From: a virus
UHGV virus genome: UHGV-0137787
Strand: one strand, 5' to 3'
Length of the DNA stretch: 11,125 bases
This document shows, in pieces, positions 3,050 through 5,045 of the stretch (position 1 is the stretch's first letter; every line of letters begins with the position of its first letter). The notes below the pieces were generated by a model. That model did not search any database. It saw only the letters and a program-made list of their open reading frames with translations, and was not told the DNA's origin. A program made the position numbers and the translations under genes.

Positions 3050-3474
3050 CAGATATACTGTTCCAGTGGCAATTGAAGAGCCTGGGCAATTTTCTTCAAT
3101 TGCTCCTGCTCTTCTGCCCCAATGCCATCCTGGTCAGCAATATCAATGCATAGGCACAGAACATCTACCGCATCATTAGTCCCGGACACATCAGCCAGCT
3201 CACGTAAAGCCTGGGCATTAGCTCGGCGCGGCGAGGCTTCATATTGAGCGCGAATATTGGCGCTCATCTGGGCAATTTCACCGGAGAACGGCGCAAAGGC
3301 AGGAAGTGCTGCAATGGTTTTTTCCAATACTGCAATTTCTTTCGCATCGCAGGTGCCGTCAGAGTATGCAATGGAATATGCGCCCCAGACGGTCGCTTCC
3401 ACCGCATCACGGTTTTCCATCTTCTTGACTCCGCCAGCCGCTTTGCGGAATTTCTTTTTGAGAATGCCGAGCAT
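3049..3474 (-). CDS. tciA: TerB-like tellurite-resistance family protein (P1 TciA-like), 141 aa
   Basis: Size and composition consistent with the TerB family; RBS GAGG 7 nt before the ATG. Symbol is tentative and rests on context (adjacent to ban and the tRNAs, as recalled for P1). Confidence 0.7.
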   Translation of the reverse strand: MLGILKKKFRKAAGGVKKMENRDAVEATVWGAYSIAYSDGTCDAKEIAVLEKTIAALPAFAPFSGEIAQMSANIRAQYEASPRRANAQALRELADVSGTNDAVDVLCLCIDIADQDGIGAEEQEQLKKIAQALQLPLEQYI

Positions 3475-3616
3475 TTATTAACCTCATTACTGGTTGGGAA
3501 ATAAGGTTGCGGTGCCGGGTGCCTCCCGGTGTCCTTTGGCTGGTTATCTACCGTGGACGGGGAAACAAGGAGAAATGAATGGACTGATATAACCATTTCC
3601 CCGCGTGCGCTTAGCC

Positions 3617-3693
3617 GCATTCACCGCAACGGAAAGAGCATTCTTGGTGGACCTGTAGATTGGGATATGAACCCGTTACAGGAGAATGCTCTT
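3617..3693. repeat. Hairpin module A: GCATTCACC lead, 11-bp perfect inverted repeat (3634-3644 / 3683-3693) enclosing the conserved motif GTAGATTGGGATATGAACCCGTTAC (3655-3679)
   Basis: Direct inspection; paralogous to module B. Confidence 0.55.
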
Positions 3694-3877
3694 ACCTGTT
3701 GCGTACTCCGTTTCATGGAGCTAACGGCGGGGGATCAGACCGCACCAGACTGGACTTATTTCAGCGTTATGCTCATGCCAGAGAATCAAACTGTGATGGT
3801 CGGTGCTGAACTCCGACACAGGGTTGTAGCAAGCCCCGCAAAGCGCGCACTACTGTAGTTGCGGCACATCAGCCTGT

Positions 3878-3977
3878 GCATTCACCACAATGTTGAGAAC
3901 ACTGGTTGTCACGCTGCAACGCAACATTTATTCGTAGATTGGGATATGACCCCGTTACGCCAGTGTTCTCAACGTTG
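3878..3977. repeat. Hairpin module B: GCATTCACC lead, 18-bp inverted repeat (3888-3905 / 3960-3977, one G-U-compatible mismatch) enclosing GTAGATTGGGATATGACCCCGTTAC (3934-3958)
   Basis: Direct inspection. Loop motif is 24/25 identical to module A, while the stem arms have a different sequence but still pair. Confidence 0.55.
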
Positions 3978-4124
3978 TAGTGCCGGTTACGGTTCCGGCC
4001 AGGCCTCTTCCTCAACGGGGTGTTCTCCATACGGACTACCGTTTATTGGTCGTTCCTGCGGTTTATGTTGTGAAGCCAGATGCTTATCTTCTGGTTGCTT
4101 CTAAGAGCTGCACTTCATCACAAC

Positions 4125-4198
4125 GGTAAGGGTACTTCGTAGGGATTCGAACCCTCTGCCAAGCACAGCGATCTCCGACGTCGCAAAATACCCTTACC
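4125..4198 (-). pseudogene. tRNA-like remnant or non-canonical tRNA-like element bounded by a 10-bp terminal inverted repeat
   Basis: Contains a canonical T-arm (AGGG-TTCGAAT-CCCT) and a D-arm-like hairpin (GCGA-CGTCGGAGA-TCGC), but I could not fold a canonical cloverleaf; ends are GGTAAGGGTA / TACCCTTACC. Sits 8 nt downstream of tRNA-Thr. Confidence 0.3.
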
Positions 4199-4206
4199 TG
4201 TTGTGT

Positions 4207-4282
4207 TGGTGCCGGTTAACGGACTCGAACCGCTGACATCCTGCTTACAAGGCAGGCGTTCTACCAACTGAGCTAAACCGGC
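4207..4282 (-). tRNA. tRNA-Thr (anticodon UGU)
   Basis: Hand-folded: acceptor GCCGGTT/AACCGGC, anticodon stem CCTGC/GCAGG with loop CTTGTAA, T-loop TTCGAGT, encoded CCA; one C-A mismatch in the D-stem. Confidence 0.85.
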
Positions 4283-4284
4283 AT

Positions 4285-4360
4285 TGGCGATGGAGGATGG
4301 ATTTGAACCATCGACCCGTTGATTAACAGTCAACCGCTCTAACCGCTGAGCTACACCATC
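4285..4360 (-). tRNA. tRNA-Asn (anticodon GUU)
   Basis: Hand-folded: D-arm GCTC-AGCGGTTA-GAGC, anticodon stem GTTGA/TCAAC with loop CTGTTAA, T-arm GATGG-TTCAAAT-CCATC, encoded CCA; one mismatch in the acceptor stem. Only 2 nt separate it from tRNA-Thr. Confidence 0.85.
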
Positions 4361-4825
4361 ACTTGCCGGGTACGTCTCCGGCGAGGGCTTCCACCTCCGT
4401 ATGCTTTTCGGCGCCCGCGCCCTGGCTGAAATTCGGTAACAGGGGATGCATAACCCTGGCTTCCAGCGTGATTAGCGCCTTCAGCATGACGGGATATACC
4501 CGTTACAAGAAATTATCCCAGGATGCCATTAAGCAATGGCTGTTACGCTGAATGAAAAAGGACGTAACAGGTAAGGACGCTGACCAAAGAGATGGCCCCT
4601 TCTCGCTCATCTGGTTAATCGAACCAGCGCCCTTGCCTGTTATGCCTCCCCGTTCCCTAATACACAGACGGGGACACTCTGCGGTCGATTTTTTGACGGG
4701 GGACGACTCATACCCCGTGGCGTCAGGCTTCTTAGGCCGCTACCATCATCAGATCATCGTTTGCATTTACTTTAATGGTCAGTTTATAAACCGCCGCAAA
4801 GTCGCTAACCATGACGAAAACCCTG

Positions 4826-4850
4826 AAAAAACGCCCACCCGAAGATGGGC
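4826..4850 (-). terminator. Intrinsic (Rho-independent) terminator on the minus strand
   Basis: Minus strand reads GCCCAUC-UUCG-GGUGGGC followed by G and six U: a 7-bp GC-rich stem with a UUCG tetraloop. The plus strand has no T-run, so it is unidirectional. Confidence 0.65.
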
Positions 4851-5017
4851 AAACTGGATGAACAGATCGTTAGGCATTTCGGTGTCGCCACTTAGGTGCA
4901 TGGTCAACCTGGCAACTCGGTGGCCATGTGGGCGGAGTAACCCAGCCATGCTTACCGCCGCGCCTATCGCGGGTAATAACTCAATCCGCTTTATAAATCC
5001 CGTTTCATTGAAACAAT

Positions 5018-5045
5018 ATTACTCTAATAAATTTATTAGAGCAAT
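5018..5045. promoter_or_regulatory. Palindromic pair of overlapping P1 C1-repressor operator-like 17-mers
   Basis: Minus-strand site at 5029-5045 reads ATTGCTCTAATAAATTT, 17/17 against the C1 operator consensus as I recall it; plus-strand site at 5018-5034 reads ATTACTCTAATAAATTT (16/17). Together they form the perfect palindrome CTCTAATAAATTTATTAGAG, which overlaps the dmt stop codon. Confidence 0.6.

What the first reader, a model, noticed from the sequence alone, without database searches (positions are those of the whole stretch)
4125..4198. tRNA-like remnant immediately downstream of tRNA-Thr
The element has a textbook T-arm (AGGG-TTCGAAT-CCCT) and a D-arm-like hairpin but no canonical acceptor or anticodon geometry, and it is closed by a perfect 10-bp terminal inverted repeat. 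It could be a decayed third tRNA of the array, a tRNA 3' fragment left by a past recombination event, or a tRNA mimic or processing signal.
Basis: seen in the sequence. Interest (0 to 1): 0.5.

Follow-up and report, generated by a model that had tools for sequence, protein, structure and literature searches.

The report
Conserved phage RNA hairpin, tRNA-like core
The "tRNA remnant" after tRNA-Thr in this P1-like phage is not a broken tRNA: it is one copy of a widespread, unannotated phage RNA hairpin with a conserved stem and swappable interior, sitting next to antitermination-like (nut / rRNA-leader-like) signals, and here the interior happens to carry a tRNA-like T-arm.

Summary
On the minus strand (the tRNA strand), 4198..4125 has a consensus T-arm, a D-like hairpin and a 10-bp perfect terminal repeat that extends to 15 bp plus a 6-bp outer helix. 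ARAGORN and Rfam find no tRNA fold.

The window is a P1-like phage, and the element lies in the untranslated ban-operon leader, under P1's doubtful 'plp' ORF.

It belongs to a family found in at least 164 phage records: P1-like, SSU5-like, lambdoid, P22-like, N4-like, Vi1-like and others.
- The stem GGUAAGAGCAUUG/CAGUGCUCUUUCC is conserved, with compensatory changes and G·U pairs.
- It encloses at least 54 unrelated interiors.
- Only 22 of 142 distinct copies follow a tRNA.
- The consensus 3' arm matches rrn boxA (UGCUCUUU). It is followed by a GU-rich strand that pairs with a covarying distal complement, and by nut-like hairpins.
- T-arm-like hairpins are about 70-fold enriched in the interiors.
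- This copy's interior is identical in unrelated phages that have no tRNA nearby.

Best reading: a cis-acting RNA helix module of phage non-coding islands, serving antitermination or processing, with a conserved tRNA-elbow-like cargo. The mechanism is inferred, not shown. My family covariance models found a neighbouring copy (3631-3696) but not this one.

The parts
4125..4198 (-). Elem1: the reported element, a long closing stem enclosing a 44-nt tRNA-elbow-like interior ('class A')
   Evidence: Sequence. Fold -30.7 kcal/mol, z -3.84. Inverted repeat I9. Class A interior found in 464 of 5426 complete E. coli genomes, almost always on P1-like plasmids, with nothing annotated there by PGAP.
4184..4198 (-). 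5' arm of the closing stem, GGUAAGGGUAUUUUG
   Evidence: Pairs with 4125-4139. Covariation across relatives: 93.8% of cells paired, 7 pairs with changes on both sides, 0 of 500 shuffles reach the observed score.
4125..4139 (-). 3' arm of the closing stem, CGAAGUACCCUUACC. It occupies the position of the boxA-like sequence of the family (consensus CAGUGCUCUUUCC), here mutated at two positions, each matched by a compensating change in the 5' arm.
   Evidence: rrn boxA consensus UGCUCUUUA from PMC6614797.
4141..4155 (-). T-arm-like hairpin AGGG-UUCGAAU-CCCU
   Evidence: In 78-nt register with the T-loops of the tRNAs (D3). The 20-nt T-arm segment GCAGAGGGTTCGAATCCCTA is identical in BUCT554, with one flanking change in L248; the hairpin itself is identical in both.
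4168..4184 (-). D-like hairpin GCGA-CGUCGGAGA-UCGC, with a loop containing GG
   Evidence: Sequence. The 16-nt core CGACGTCGGAGATCGC (4168-4183) is identical in BUCT554 and has one loop change in L248.
4199..4205 (-). Outer 5' extension CACAAC plus a bulged A. It can pair with GUUGUG at 4119-4124.
   Evidence: Columns 2-7 with 43-48 in A1: AU/GC double change in 4 sequences, C-G/U·G in 7.
4067..4124 (-). Y1 unit, a nut-like site directly 3' of Elem1. It has a closing helix GUUGUGAUG/CUUCACAAC, a boxA-like AGCUCUUAGAAGCAA (4095-4109) and a boxB-like hairpin CCAGA-AGAUAAGCA-UCUGG (4076-4094).
   Evidence: Conserved in all relatives. A homologue lies between PL and the N-like gene of phage epsilon34. 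The closing helix covaries.
4207..4360 (-). tRNA-Thr(UGU) and tRNA-Asn(GUU), immediately upstream in the same transcription direction (context)
   Evidence: ARAGORN and Rfam.
3631..3696 (-). Elem3: a second, canonical copy of the family (GGUAAGAGCAUUCU...AGAAUGCUCUUUCC), followed by GUUGCGGUGAAUGC
   Evidence: the repeat finder I5 and D1. Family covariance models R1 and R2 give E 4.5e-4 and 2.3e-3.
3883..3982 (-). Elem2: a divergent copy with a 19-23-bp stem (ACAACGUUGAGAACACUGG...CCAGUGUUCUCAACAUUGUGG) and the same tail GUGAAUGC
   Evidence: the repeat finder I1 and D1. Motif scan. Alignment.
4565..4642 (-). Elem0: a divergent copy upstream of the tRNAs (AACAGGCAAGGGCGCUG...CAGCGUCCUUACCUGUU), lying just after the tmRNA-like segment
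   Evidence: the repeat finder I2 and I11. Sequence.
3508..3628 (-). Y3 unit following Elem3, with a partial match to Rfam STnc100
   Evidence: 36.5 bits, E 6.7e-6, below the gathering score of 47. Closing helix GUUGCGGUG/CACCGCAAC.

Best explanation
Elem1 is a diverged copy of a widespread, so far unannotated RNA module of enterobacterial phages. It acts in cis, at the RNA level, on the strand of the tRNAs.

The module:
- A stem of 13-15 bp, up to about 21 bp with its outer extension, that loops out a freely replaceable interior.
- In the family consensus, the 3' strand of the stem is a boxA-like sequence (UGCUCUUU).
- Next comes a GU-rich, boxC-like strand (GUUGUGGUG) that pairs with a distal complement.
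- Nut-like hairpins follow.

These modules occur singly or in tandem in long untranslated phage transcripts: tRNA islands, late-operon leaders and stand-alone non-coding genes of about 500-600 nt.

Inferred mechanism: like the boxB-boxA-boxC leader and the leader-trailer helices of rRNA operons, the modules do two things.
1. They keep RNA polymerase resistant to Rho in untranslated RNA.
2. They bracket small RNA 'cargo' in double-stranded stems that insulate folding and can serve as processing sites (RNase III-type).

In this window the stem's own boxA has degenerated. Pairing was kept through compensatory changes, and a good boxA plus boxB-like hairpin lies 16 nt downstream in Y1. The cargo is a conserved tRNA-elbow-like core (T-arm plus D-like loop), probably a tRNA-derived or tRNA-mimicking small RNA.

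Shown: family membership by homology, selection on the stem, the strand, the absence of a tRNA fold, and conservation of the core.
Inferred: Nus-factor antitermination, processing, and any function of the core.
For: Context:
- The window is 95% identical to P1. The element lies downstream of Pban/Op72 and the tRNAs, and upstream of tciA and ban.
- About 1.5 kb here has no convincing minus-strand ORF.

The stem is under selection as RNA:
- 93.8% of cells are paired. There are 7 pairs and 42 cells with changes on both sides. 0 of 500 shuffles reach the observed score.
- Controls with the partner slid by 1-3 columns pair only 34-59%.
- U·G wobbles would be A·C mismatches on the other strand: position 11 in 100 of 123 distinct copies, and G·U in the 42-copy class B.

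Family and breadth:
- 164 phage records carry the 3' arm plus tail, many at 97-100% identity. They include lambdoid phages, Uetakevirus, Sashavirus, Gamaleyavirus, Taipeivirus and Jedunavirus.
- 142 distinct copies fall into 54 unrelated interior classes.
- Interiors are on average no more structured than shuffles: mean z -0.56.

rrn/nut-like features:
- The consensus 3' arm, CAGUGCUCUUUCC, contains UGCUCUUU, 8 of 9 positions of the rrn boxA consensus (PMC6614797). The rrn leader sequence was verified in all 5426 E. coli genomes.
- 75 of 123 copies tolerate a U·U mismatch that preserves GCUCUUU. The alternative base gives the lambda-type GCUCUUA.
- The next 9 nt, GUUGUGGUG, covary with a distal complement at a median of 111 nt. 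GUUGCGGUG goes with CACCGCA.. in 22 of 23 cases, and GUUGUGCUG with CAGCACAAC in 5 of 6. boxC pairs with the trailer in the same way (PMC10250234).
- A homologue of Y1 sits at the nutL position of epsilon34.

Other support:
- Stand-alone units bounded by a promoter and a terminator contain the module: Geezett and L248.
- The class A core is conserved. The 16-nt and 20-nt segments are identical between the window and BUCT554, while the arms differ at 8 of 30 positions at four base pairs, each still forming a standard pair. A third lineage (L248) adds an A-U pair at stem position 14, against U·G and C-G in the other two.
- T-arm-like hairpins occur in 6 of 54 interior classes, about 1.8 per kb against 0.026 per kb background. 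One class shows a compensatory T-stem change.
- Tandem-unit gain and loss explains the interior 'alleles' among P1-like plasmids.
Against: - Covariance models of the family framework, built without the P1 class A arms, detect Elem3 but not Elem1. Only fragments score (E about 2-9). Elem1's membership therefore rests on shared flanks, graded arm variants and the shared interior, not on a model score.
- In Elem1 the boxA-like arm is degenerate: UACCCUUA.
- In the family, boxA is base-paired inside the stem, whereas NusB/NusE bind single-stranded boxA. The stem could mask the signal rather than present it.
- No experimental data (transcript ends, Nus binding, RNase III cleavage) were available. 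Literature and sequence-string searches found nothing on this element.
- In lambdoid phages the module sits in Q-modified late transcripts, which do not need boxA.
- Much of the family sample was collected with patterns that fix the arms. Only the subset collected independently of the 5' arm (A1) was used for covariation, and for most of its rows the search pattern fixed the last six bases of the 3' arm (CTTACC).
- The match to boxA was recognised post hoc.
Confidence: 0.5

Rival explanations
1. Decayed third tRNA gene of the Asn-Thr array, that is, a pseudogene with no present function.
For: Consensus T-arm, with its loop exactly 78 nt from that of tRNA-Thr, which is itself 78 nt from that of tRNA-Asn (D3). 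D-like hairpin with GG in the loop. Relatives do carry extra tRNAs in this island: Tyr, Ser, His.
Against: - No acceptor or anticodon arm can be formed. No tRNA hit at any threshold.
- The same interior occurs with canonical family arms in phages that have no tRNA nearby.
- The extra tRNAs of relatives lie at other positions: Tyr between Asn and Thr, Ser 300-470 nt downstream.
- The core is more conserved than the arms, which is not what a decaying pseudogene shows.
- No intact tRNA was found nested between family arms in 19 long copies.
Confidence: 0.1
2. Functional tRNA mimic. The T-loop/D-loop 'elbow' on a long helix is the active part. It would be recognised by tRNA-binding factors (RNase P, TruB/TrmA, CCA enzyme, SmpB-like proteins) or would act as a decoy for tRNA-directed host nucleases. 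The stem is only a scaffold.
For: The D-like hairpin and T-arm are invariant between P1-like phages and BUCT554, with one change each in L248, while the arms changed. T-arm-like hairpins recur in six unrelated interior classes, about 70-fold over background, once with a compensatory change. A tmRNA-like tag template lies in the same leader. From my own knowledge: P1 C4 RNA is a precedent for an RNase P-processed, tRNA-like regulatory RNA.
Against: - 48 of 54 interior classes have no T-arm, so mimicry cannot be the function of the family.
- The helix under the T-arm is 19-25 bp, not 12 bp, and there is no free 3' NCCA, so the geometry is wrong for RNase P or aminoacylation (sequence).
- The mini-hairpin between the arms is not supported by covariation: G-C becomes U·U in L248.
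Confidence: 0.2
3. DNA-level element. The inverted repeat and conserved flanks would be recombination 'linker' sequences or a protein-binding palindrome that promotes exchange of modules between phages. RNA structure would be incidental.
For: Arms and tails are near-identical across unrelated phages, while interiors are unrelated. Unit gain and loss by recombination between repeated arms and tails is visible among P1-like plasmids.
Against: - The strand asymmetry (U·G wobbles, one strand only) and compensatory changes fit RNA pairing.
- Copies are co-oriented with transcription in the annotated lambdoid, P22-like and Sasha-like loci and in P1, and lie within their own promoter-terminator unit in Geezett.
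- Arms separated by 25-105 bp are not a plausible dimer site.
Confidence: 0.1
4. Part of the protein-coding gene plp (putative lipoprotein), annotated on the + strand of P1.
For: P1 records annotate plp over this stretch, overlapping tRNA-Thr.
Against: - In this window the same frame ends at a TAA at 4102-4104, before the element. The same change occurs in other lineages.
- The interior is replaced by unrelated sequences of different length in relatives.
- RefSeq/PGAP annotates nothing here in all 40 records listed, out of 473 matching.
- The ORF would overlap a tRNA gene.
Confidence: 0.02

Closest known systems
rRNA-operon antitermination and processing leader (boxB hairpin, boxA, boxC; leader-trailer helix; Nus factors, SuhB, RNase III)
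   Same: The order is the same: a hairpin of non-conserved sequence, then UGCUCUUU (boxA), then a GU-rich strand that pairs with a distal complement enclosing an RNA. It occurs in long untranslated transcripts that also carry tRNAs.
   Different: - boxA is the 3' strand of the hairpin, not single-stranded.
- boxA and the GU-rich strand are adjacent (2 nt apart) rather than 18-19 nt apart.
- The enclosed RNAs are 25-250 nt and variable.
- In this copy boxA is degenerate.
- No Nus or RNase III data exist.
Lambdoid nut sites (boxA plus boxB), especially the H-19B / epsilon34 type, and the H-19B 'reducer' stem-loop (Neely & Friedman 2000, from my own knowledge)
   Same: The Y1 unit next to Elem1 is homologous to the sequence between PL and the N-like gene of epsilon34. 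It has boxA-like and boxB-like parts. Like the 'reducer', it is a stem whose pairing, not its loop sequence, is conserved.
   Different: P1 has no known N protein. Elem1 lies outside the boxA-boxB spacer. The stem sequence itself is strongly conserved in the family.
tRNA genes and tRNA pseudogenes
   Same: Consensus T-arm, a D-like loop with GG, about 74 nt long, and adjacent to and in register with two tRNAs.
   Different: No 7-bp acceptor stem stacked on the T-stem, no anticodon arm and no CCA. No covariance-model or ARAGORN call.
tRNA-like stable RNAs encoded with phage tRNAs or processed like them (T4 species 1 and 2 RNAs; P1/P7 C4 antisense RNA cut by RNase P), from my own knowledge
   Same: A small structured RNA co-transcribed with phage tRNAs, with tRNA-like features and an unknown or regulatory role.
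   Different: No sequence relation was tested or seen. The Elem1 ends are buried in a long helix rather than forming an acceptor end.
Large ornate phage-associated ncRNAs next to tRNA genes (GOLLD, ROOL), from my own knowledge
   Same: Non-coding, modular, phage-borne, next to or interleaved with tRNA genes, with variable and conserved parts.
   Different: No Rfam match to them. Different host range. Here the unit is small and repeated.
Prophage sRNAs STnc100 / PasD (Rfam RF02076; bioRxiv 10.64898/2026.05.13.724894)
   Same: The Y3 unit 500 nt downstream partly matches STnc100. Y units share its architecture: a closing helix GGUGAAU...CACC and a terminal hairpin.
   Different: The match is below the gathering score and concerns the neighbouring unit, not Elem1.

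Membership tests
tRNA (Rfam RF00005 / ARAGORN) | Covariance-model or ARAGORN score above threshold | tested here: not met
   No call at gathering threshold, nor at E <= 10 on 1651 nt or on 104 nt. ARAGORN calls nothing at default, 90% or 80% thresholds.
tRNA (Rfam RF00005 / ARAGORN) | 7-bp acceptor stem stacked directly on a 5-bp T-stem, discriminator plus CCA, and an anticodon arm with a 7-nt loop | tested here: not met
   The closing helix is 15 (+6) bp. The T-stem is 4 bp with a G·A mismatch. Only a 3-bp/3-nt mini-hairpin stands in place of the anticodon arm. No CCA.
tRNA (Rfam RF00005 / ARAGORN) | T-arm with a UUCRANY loop closed by G-C | tested here: met
   AGGG-UUCGAAU-CCCU at 4141-4155.
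Conserved-arm phage hairpin family (defined here) | Same flanks: ACACAACA upstream and GUUGUGRUGAA downstream | tested here: met
   Flanks are identical to those of other copies.
Conserved-arm phage hairpin family (defined here) | Arms GGUAAGrGyAUU / ArUrCyCUUwyC that stay paired | tested here: met
   Elem1 arms GGUAAGGGUAUU/AGUACCCUUACC. The same arm variant occurs in Klebsiella class C copies. Covariation; arm statistics.
Conserved-arm phage hairpin family (defined here) | Significant score with a covariance model of the family built without this lineage | tested here: not met
   R1 and R2 find Elem3 (E 4.5e-4 and 2.3e-3). For Elem1 they find only fragments: 5.7 bits at E 9.4 and 7.9 bits at E 2.
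Conserved-arm phage hairpin family (defined here) | The same interior found between canonical family arms elsewhere | tested here: met
   BUCT554 (L134) and L248 carry the class A interior between GGTAAGAGCATTG.. and ..CAGTGCTCTTTCC.
rrn-type antitermination signal (boxB-boxA-boxC) | boxA consensus UGCUCUUUA | tested here: not met
   The family consensus has UGCUCUUUC (8 of 9), but this copy has UACCCUUAC (5 of 9). The nearest good boxA-like sequence is AGCUCUUAG in Y1, at 4095-4109.
rrn-type antitermination signal (boxB-boxA-boxC) | GU-rich strand 3' of boxA that pairs with a distal 'trailer' | tested here: met
   GUUGUGAUG (4124..4116) pairs with CUUCACAAC (4075..4067). There is family-wide covariation of the 9-mer with its distal complement.
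rrn-type antitermination signal (boxB-boxA-boxC) | NusB/NusE binding and Rho-resistant transcription | not testable with these tools
   Needs ChIP or RIP, or read-through assays.
Lambdoid nut site (for the adjacent Y1 unit) | boxA followed by a boxB hairpin, located where an N protein acts | tested here: inconclusive
   The sequence architecture is present, and it is homologous to the PL-N leader of epsilon34. No N-like gene was looked for in P1.
RNase III processing stem | About 20 bp or more of helix; cleavage in vivo | tested here: inconclusive
   15 bp plus 6 bp, with one bulged A and two G·U pairs. Cleavage is not testable here.
Protein-coding gene plp | An open, conserved reading frame across the element | tested here: not met
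   TAA at 4102-4104 in frame. Interior replaced in relatives. Not annotated by PGAP.

The most novel reading that the evidence does not exclude
The element is one unit of a portable 'non-coding RNA expression cassette' used by many unrelated enterobacterial phages. rRNA-leader-like boxA/boxC signals and leader-trailer helices would let a phage transcribe, protect from Rho and excise arbitrary small RNAs. Those cargoes would include tRNA-elbow mimics (this copy), Hfq-type sRNAs (STnc100-like) and a tmRNA-like tag template with its pseudoknot. On this reading, P1's supposed upl/plp genes are really an array of such RNA units. The class A core would be a functional tRNA-elbow decoy or handle.
Probability: 0.3. 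Interest if true: 0.8.

Novelty: new variant of a known kind. Interest (0 to 1): 0.62.

Why it matters
P1 is a classic model phage, yet about 1.5 kb of its ban-operon leader is annotated only with two doubtful ORFs (upl, plp) and a 'dicF-like region'. The evidence here says it is an array of conserved RNA modules.

Those modules are shared, at near-identical sequence, with lambdoid, P22-like, N4-like, Vi1-like and other phages, and with hundreds of phage-plasmids. None is in Rfam.

If the rrn-like reading is right, it would show how phages keep long untranslated tRNA and sRNA islands transcribed and processed. It would also give a handle for finding phage small RNAs systematically: look between the conserved arms. 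And it would add a new case of Nus-factor boxA use outside rRNA, suhB and CRISPR arrays.

The conserved tRNA-elbow core and the neighbouring tmRNA-like tag template are testable leads on phage manipulation of the translation or tRNA machinery.

Practically, the plp annotation over this site, and probably upl too, should be treated as spurious.

Tried and rejected
- **tRNA finders.** ARAGORN at default and relaxed thresholds, and Rfam at gathering threshold, at E <= 10, and on 104 nt only. No tRNA.
- **Origin from a host tRNA.** A BLAST of the interior against 5426 E. coli genomes hits only P1-like replicons.
- **Intact tRNA nested between family arms.** Scanned arms separated by 82-112 nt. 19 distinct long copies, and ARAGORN finds none at default or 90%.
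- **Hypothetical 76-nt tRNA at 4204..4129 in array register.** The T-loop fits, but no acceptor pairing is possible (by inspection).
- **Interiors as structured RNAs in general.** Mean z is only -0.56, and 5 of 54 are below -2. Most interiors look like filler.
- **Self-cleaving ribozymes after tRNAs (HDV-like, hammerhead, twister) and put-like RNAs.** No Rfam hit. The arms pair with each other rather than in the nested topology those folds need.
- **Integron attC, or a MITE with target duplication.** Core motifs are absent, and the flanks are inverted repeats, not direct ones.
- **CRISPR-repeat mimic** (ATAAACCG after Y1). No repeat-like hairpin.
- **Resemblance of the arm to the P1 C1 operator** (ATTGCTCTAAT). 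The family occurs mostly in non-P1 phages.
- **Antisense target search for the interior inside the window.** Only a 10-nt direct repeat (D8).
- **Literature.** Searches on P1 tRNA-like RNAs, STnc100, phage tmRNA and boxA, and exact sequence strings of the arms and of Y1, found nothing on this element. Lobocka et al. 2004 is not held in the library.
- **Family covariance models R1 and R2.** They recover Elem3 but not Elem1.
Full report
**1. What is in the sequence.**
The three tRNAs of the window (Met/Ile-CAU 2699-2774, Thr 4207-4282, Asn 4285-4360) are on the minus strand. Read on that strand, 4198..4125 is GGTAAGGGTATTTTGCGACGTCGGAGATCGCTGTGCTTGGCAGAGGGTTCGAATCCCTACGAAGTACCCTTACC.

- T-arm AGGG-TTCGAAT-CCCT at 4141-4155.
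- D-like hairpin GCGA-CGTCGGAGA-TCGC at 4168-4184.
- A perfect 10-bp terminal inverted repeat.

The repeat extends to 15 bp with two G·U pairs. The fold is -30.7 kcal/mol, z = -3.84, and none of 200 shuffles folds as well. It can extend outward by CACAAC/GUUGUG across a bulged A.

No tool finds a tRNA:
- ARAGORN does not.
- Rfam does not, at gathering score or at E <= 10, even on 104 nt alone. Only T-arm-sized local matches appear there.
- Relaxed ARAGORN calls it only at a 70% threshold, which also yields 16 other spurious calls.

The T-loop is in exact 78-nt register with those of tRNA-Thr and tRNA-Asn.

**2. Where it is.**
The window is about 95% identical to phage P1. In P1 this stretch lies in the ban operon:
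- promoter Pban with the C1 operator Op72;
- a 'dicF-like region';
- tRNA-Asn and tRNA-Thr;
- then about 700 nt in which only two + strand ORFs, upl and plp, are annotated;
- then tciABC, tRNA-Ile and ban.

plp covers the element and overlaps tRNA-Thr. Three things argue against it being a gene:
- In this window the same frame stops at 4102-4104, upstream of the element.
- Relatives replace the region with unrelated sequence.
- RefSeq annotates nothing there in all 40 E. coli records listed, out of 473 that match.

**3. Relatives: a conserved stem with replaceable contents.**
I aligned the 130 nt downstream of the tRNA in P1, P7-like, D6, SSU5-like Klebsiella and Cronobacter phage-plasmids.
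- The arms (GGTAAGrGyATT ... ArTrCyCTTACC) and the following 60 nt are conserved.
- The interior differs completely in sequence and length, from 55 to 85 nt.

Plasmids of the RCS47 type show why. They carry two units in tandem: tRNA-Thr, class A element, a 196-nt 'Y' unit, class B element, Y1. P1 and this window have lost the second unit, and P7 has lost the first. So the 'alleles' are differential retention of repeated units, not decay of one tRNA.

The window itself has further copies:
- a canonical one at 3631-3696;
- divergent ones at 3883-3982 and 4565-4642.

Each is followed by the same tail, GTTGyGrTGAAtGC.

**4. A widespread family.**
The 3' arm plus tail (TGCTCTTTCCGTTGTGGTGAATGCGCAGG) occurs at 97-100% identity in many of the 164 phage records that match. 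They come from many families:
- lambdoid phages, between pR' or Q and the lysis genes, sometimes after tRNA arrays;
- Uetakevirus, Sashavirus and Jedunavirus;
- N4-like Gamaleyavirus;
- Ackermannviridae;
- Cronobacter, Pantoea and Erwinia phages.

Pattern scans of IMG/VR gave 142 distinct copies with 54 unrelated interior classes of 25-105 nt.

Other properties:
- Only 22 copies have a tRNA ending within 20 nt upstream, and 105 have none within 2 kb.
- Interiors are on average no more structured than shuffles.
- In Geezett, and in L248 and BUCT554-like phages, the module lies inside a stand-alone non-coding unit of about 500-600 nt. In Geezett both a promoter-like site and an intrinsic terminator were found by scan. 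In BUCT554 the scan found only the terminator, and in L248 both were read from the sequence. In Geezett the unit runs antisense to its neighbours.

**5. The stem is selected as RNA, on the tRNA strand.**
I used the subset collected without fixing the 5' arm (A1). For most of its rows the search pattern fixed the last six bases of the 3' arm (CTTACC).
- 93.8% of cells pair.
- 7 pairs and 42 cells change on both sides.
- 0 of 500 shuffles reach the observed score.
- Controls with the partner slid by 1-3 columns pair only 34-59%.

U·G wobbles (position 11 in 100 of 123 copies) and the G·U pair of the abundant class B would be A·C mismatches on the other strand.

**6. Resemblance to nut sites and rrn leaders.**
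The consensus 3' arm, CAGUGCUCUUUCC, contains UGCUCUUU. The rrn boxA consensus is UGCUCUUUA (PMC6614797). The rrn leader sequence is present about 7 times in every E. coli genome.

- Most copies (75 of 123) keep a U·U mismatch that preserves GCUCUUU. The alternative base gives the lambda-type GCUCUUA. This suggests selection on the sequence of that strand as well as on pairing.
- The next nine bases (GUUGUGGUG) are GU-rich, like boxC. Like boxC, they pair with a distal complement at a median of 111 nt, with clear covariation. GUUGCGGUG goes with CACCGCA.. in 22 of 23 cases, GUUGUGCUG with CAGCACAAC in 5 of 6, and GUUGUGAUG with C.UCACAAC (boxC and the leader-trailer helix are described in PMC10250234).
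- The unit directly 3' of Elem1 (Y1, 4124..4067) has a boxA-like AGCUCUUAGAAGCAA and a hairpin CCAGA-AGAUAAGCA-UCUGG. Its homologue lies between PL and the N-like gene of epsilon34, which is the nutL position.
- Long untranslated RNAs are Rho targets, and boxA protects rRNA and CRISPR arrays (PMC7665894). The ban leader is about 1.5 kb of untranslated RNA.

**7. What is special about this copy.**
Its arms (GGGUA/UACCC) differ from the consensus (GAGCA/UGCUC) at paired positions, so pairing is kept but the boxA match is lost.

Its interior is unusually conserved:
- The 16-nt D-like segment and the 20-nt T-arm segment are identical in BUCT554.
- The arms differ at 8 of 30 positions, affecting four base pairs, each still a standard pair.
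- If the arm rate applied to the interior, 36 unchanged bases would have a probability of about 1e-5 (0.73^36, my arithmetic).
- A third lineage (L248) agrees, and adds a third pair type at stem position 14.

T-arm-like hairpins recur in 6 of 54 interior classes, about 1.8 per kb against 0.026 per kb outside tRNA genes in the same loci. One class shows a compensatory change, AGAGG/CCUCU versus AGCGG/CCGCU.

So the tRNA-like core is probably a selected cargo, or at least a recurrent kind of insert, not random decay. The mini-hairpin between the D-like and T arms is not supported.

**8. Interpretation and limits.**
The identity part of the conclusion is well supported: not a tRNA, and a copy of a conserved-arm RNA hairpin family embedded in nut/rrn-like modules of phage non-coding islands.

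The mechanism is an inference from architecture. That mechanism is Nus-factor antitermination plus leader-trailer-type bracketing and processing of small-RNA cargo.

Points against it:
- boxA is paired within the stem.
- This copy's boxA is degenerate.
- Lambdoid copies lie in Q-modified transcripts.
- My family covariance models, built without P1-type arms, detect Elem3 (E 4.5e-4 and 2.3e-3) but not Elem1.
- The boxA match was recognised post hoc.
- No experimental or literature record of the element was found.

**9. Comparison with known systems.**
The closest in how it probably works:
- the rrn boxB-boxA-boxC leader with its leader-trailer helix;
- lambdoid nut sites, including the H-19B 'reducer' stem, whose pairing but not sequence matters (from my own knowledge).

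The closest in appearance: tRNA pseudogenes, tRNA-like phage stable RNAs, and the large phage ncRNAs that sit among tRNA genes (GOLLD, ROOL).

It is not a member of the tRNA family, because defining features were tested and not met. Rfam 15 contains no family that matches it.

**10. Verdict.**
- Novelty: a new variant of a known kind of cis-acting RNA signal, in a family that appears undescribed.
- Interest: moderate to high. The reasons are its breadth, its location in a model phage, and the neighbouring tmRNA-like sequence noted below.

Noticed in passing
window 4680-4830 (-); also L141 ~560-720 and L142 ~520-700: A tmRNA-like mRNA-like domain. ...AAAGUAAAU GCA AAC GAU GAU CUG AUG AUG GUA GCG GCC UAA (4764..4732) encodes ANDDLMMVAA, against E. 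coli ssrA ANDENYALAA. It is followed by an H-type pseudoknot. The same arrangement, with tag ANDDVVLMAA, occurs in N4-like IME11 and Vi1-like Magnus, just upstream of their copy of the hairpin family. Both pseudoknot stems covary there (CGGGG/CCCUG, CAAGG/CCUUG, ACGGGG/CCCCGU; CCAG/CUGG, CCGA/UCGG, GUCG/CGAC). Rfam tmRNA_permuted, alpha_tmRNA and beta_tmRNA give weak hits below the gathering score (E 2.5e-5 to 0.04). ARAGORN calls no tmRNA, and no acceptor/CCA domain was found.
   Followed up: partly
window 4067-4124 (-): The Y1 unit is a nut-like site (boxA-like plus boxB-like hairpin inside a 9-bp closing helix). It is about 82% identical to the PL-N leader of Salmonella phage epsilon34, and is also present in Sashavirus and Nonanavirus structural operons. 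P1 is not known to encode an N protein.
   Followed up: partly
window 3508-3628 (-): Partial match to the prophage sRNA family STnc100 (36.5 bits, E 6.7e-6, below the gathering score of 47), just upstream of tciA. Its closing helix GUUGCGGUG/CACCGCAAC fits the Y-unit architecture.
   Followed up: partly
window 3883-3982, 3631-3696 and 4565-4642: Three more long inverted repeats of the same module type (Elem2, Elem3, Elem0). The interiors of Elem2 and Elem3 share GTAACGGGkTCATATCCCAATCTAC (repeat finder D2, 96% identical). In Elem3 this is followed by UCCACCA, which resembles a tRNA 3' end.
   Followed up: partly
window 3980-3999 (-): The hairpin GCCGG-AACCGUAA-CCGGC-AC, just before Elem2, looks like the acceptor stem and 3' end of tRNA-Thr (GCCGGUU...AACCGGCACCA) with everything between deleted. 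The same 'acceptor-only' hairpin precedes the element in Sashavirus (repeat finder D7).
   Followed up: no
window 4826-4851 (-): A strong intrinsic terminator (GCCCAUCUUCGGGUGGGC plus a U-run) at the end of P1's 'dicF-like region'. It lies between Pban and the tRNAs. Expression of the tRNAs, tciABC and ban from Pban would therefore need read-through or another promoter, and no sigma-70 consensus promoter was found in 3300-5150.
   Followed up: no
window 3529-3858 and 3859-4104 (+): The ORFs corresponding to P1 upl and plp lie antisense to the RNA modules. In D6, SSU5-like and other relatives the upl region is replaced by a stretch carrying tRNA-Ser(UGA). plp is truncated here by a stop codon. 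Both annotations are probably spurious.
   Followed up: partly
L141 ~1008-1078 (phage IME11): A tRNA-like sequence with a 7-bp acceptor-like stem, a perfect T-arm (UCUGG-UUCGAGU-CCAGA), an anticodon-like arm (loop GUGCACA) and a terminal CCA, but no D-arm. ARAGORN does not call it. The same locus also has a 'tRNA-???' call.
   Followed up: no
L142 727-815 (phage Magnus): The interior of the Magnus copy resembles a class II tRNA (D-arm-like GCCGGAAAUUGGUAGACGG, T-arm AAAGG-UUCGAUU-CCUUU), but no tool calls it as a tRNA.
   Followed up: no
window 5017-5046: A 15-nt abutting inverted repeat, 93% complementary (TATTACTCTAATAAA/TTTATTAGAGCAATA). It corresponds to the bivalent C1 operator Op72 (Oban) of P1. 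This is a known feature.
   Followed up: yes
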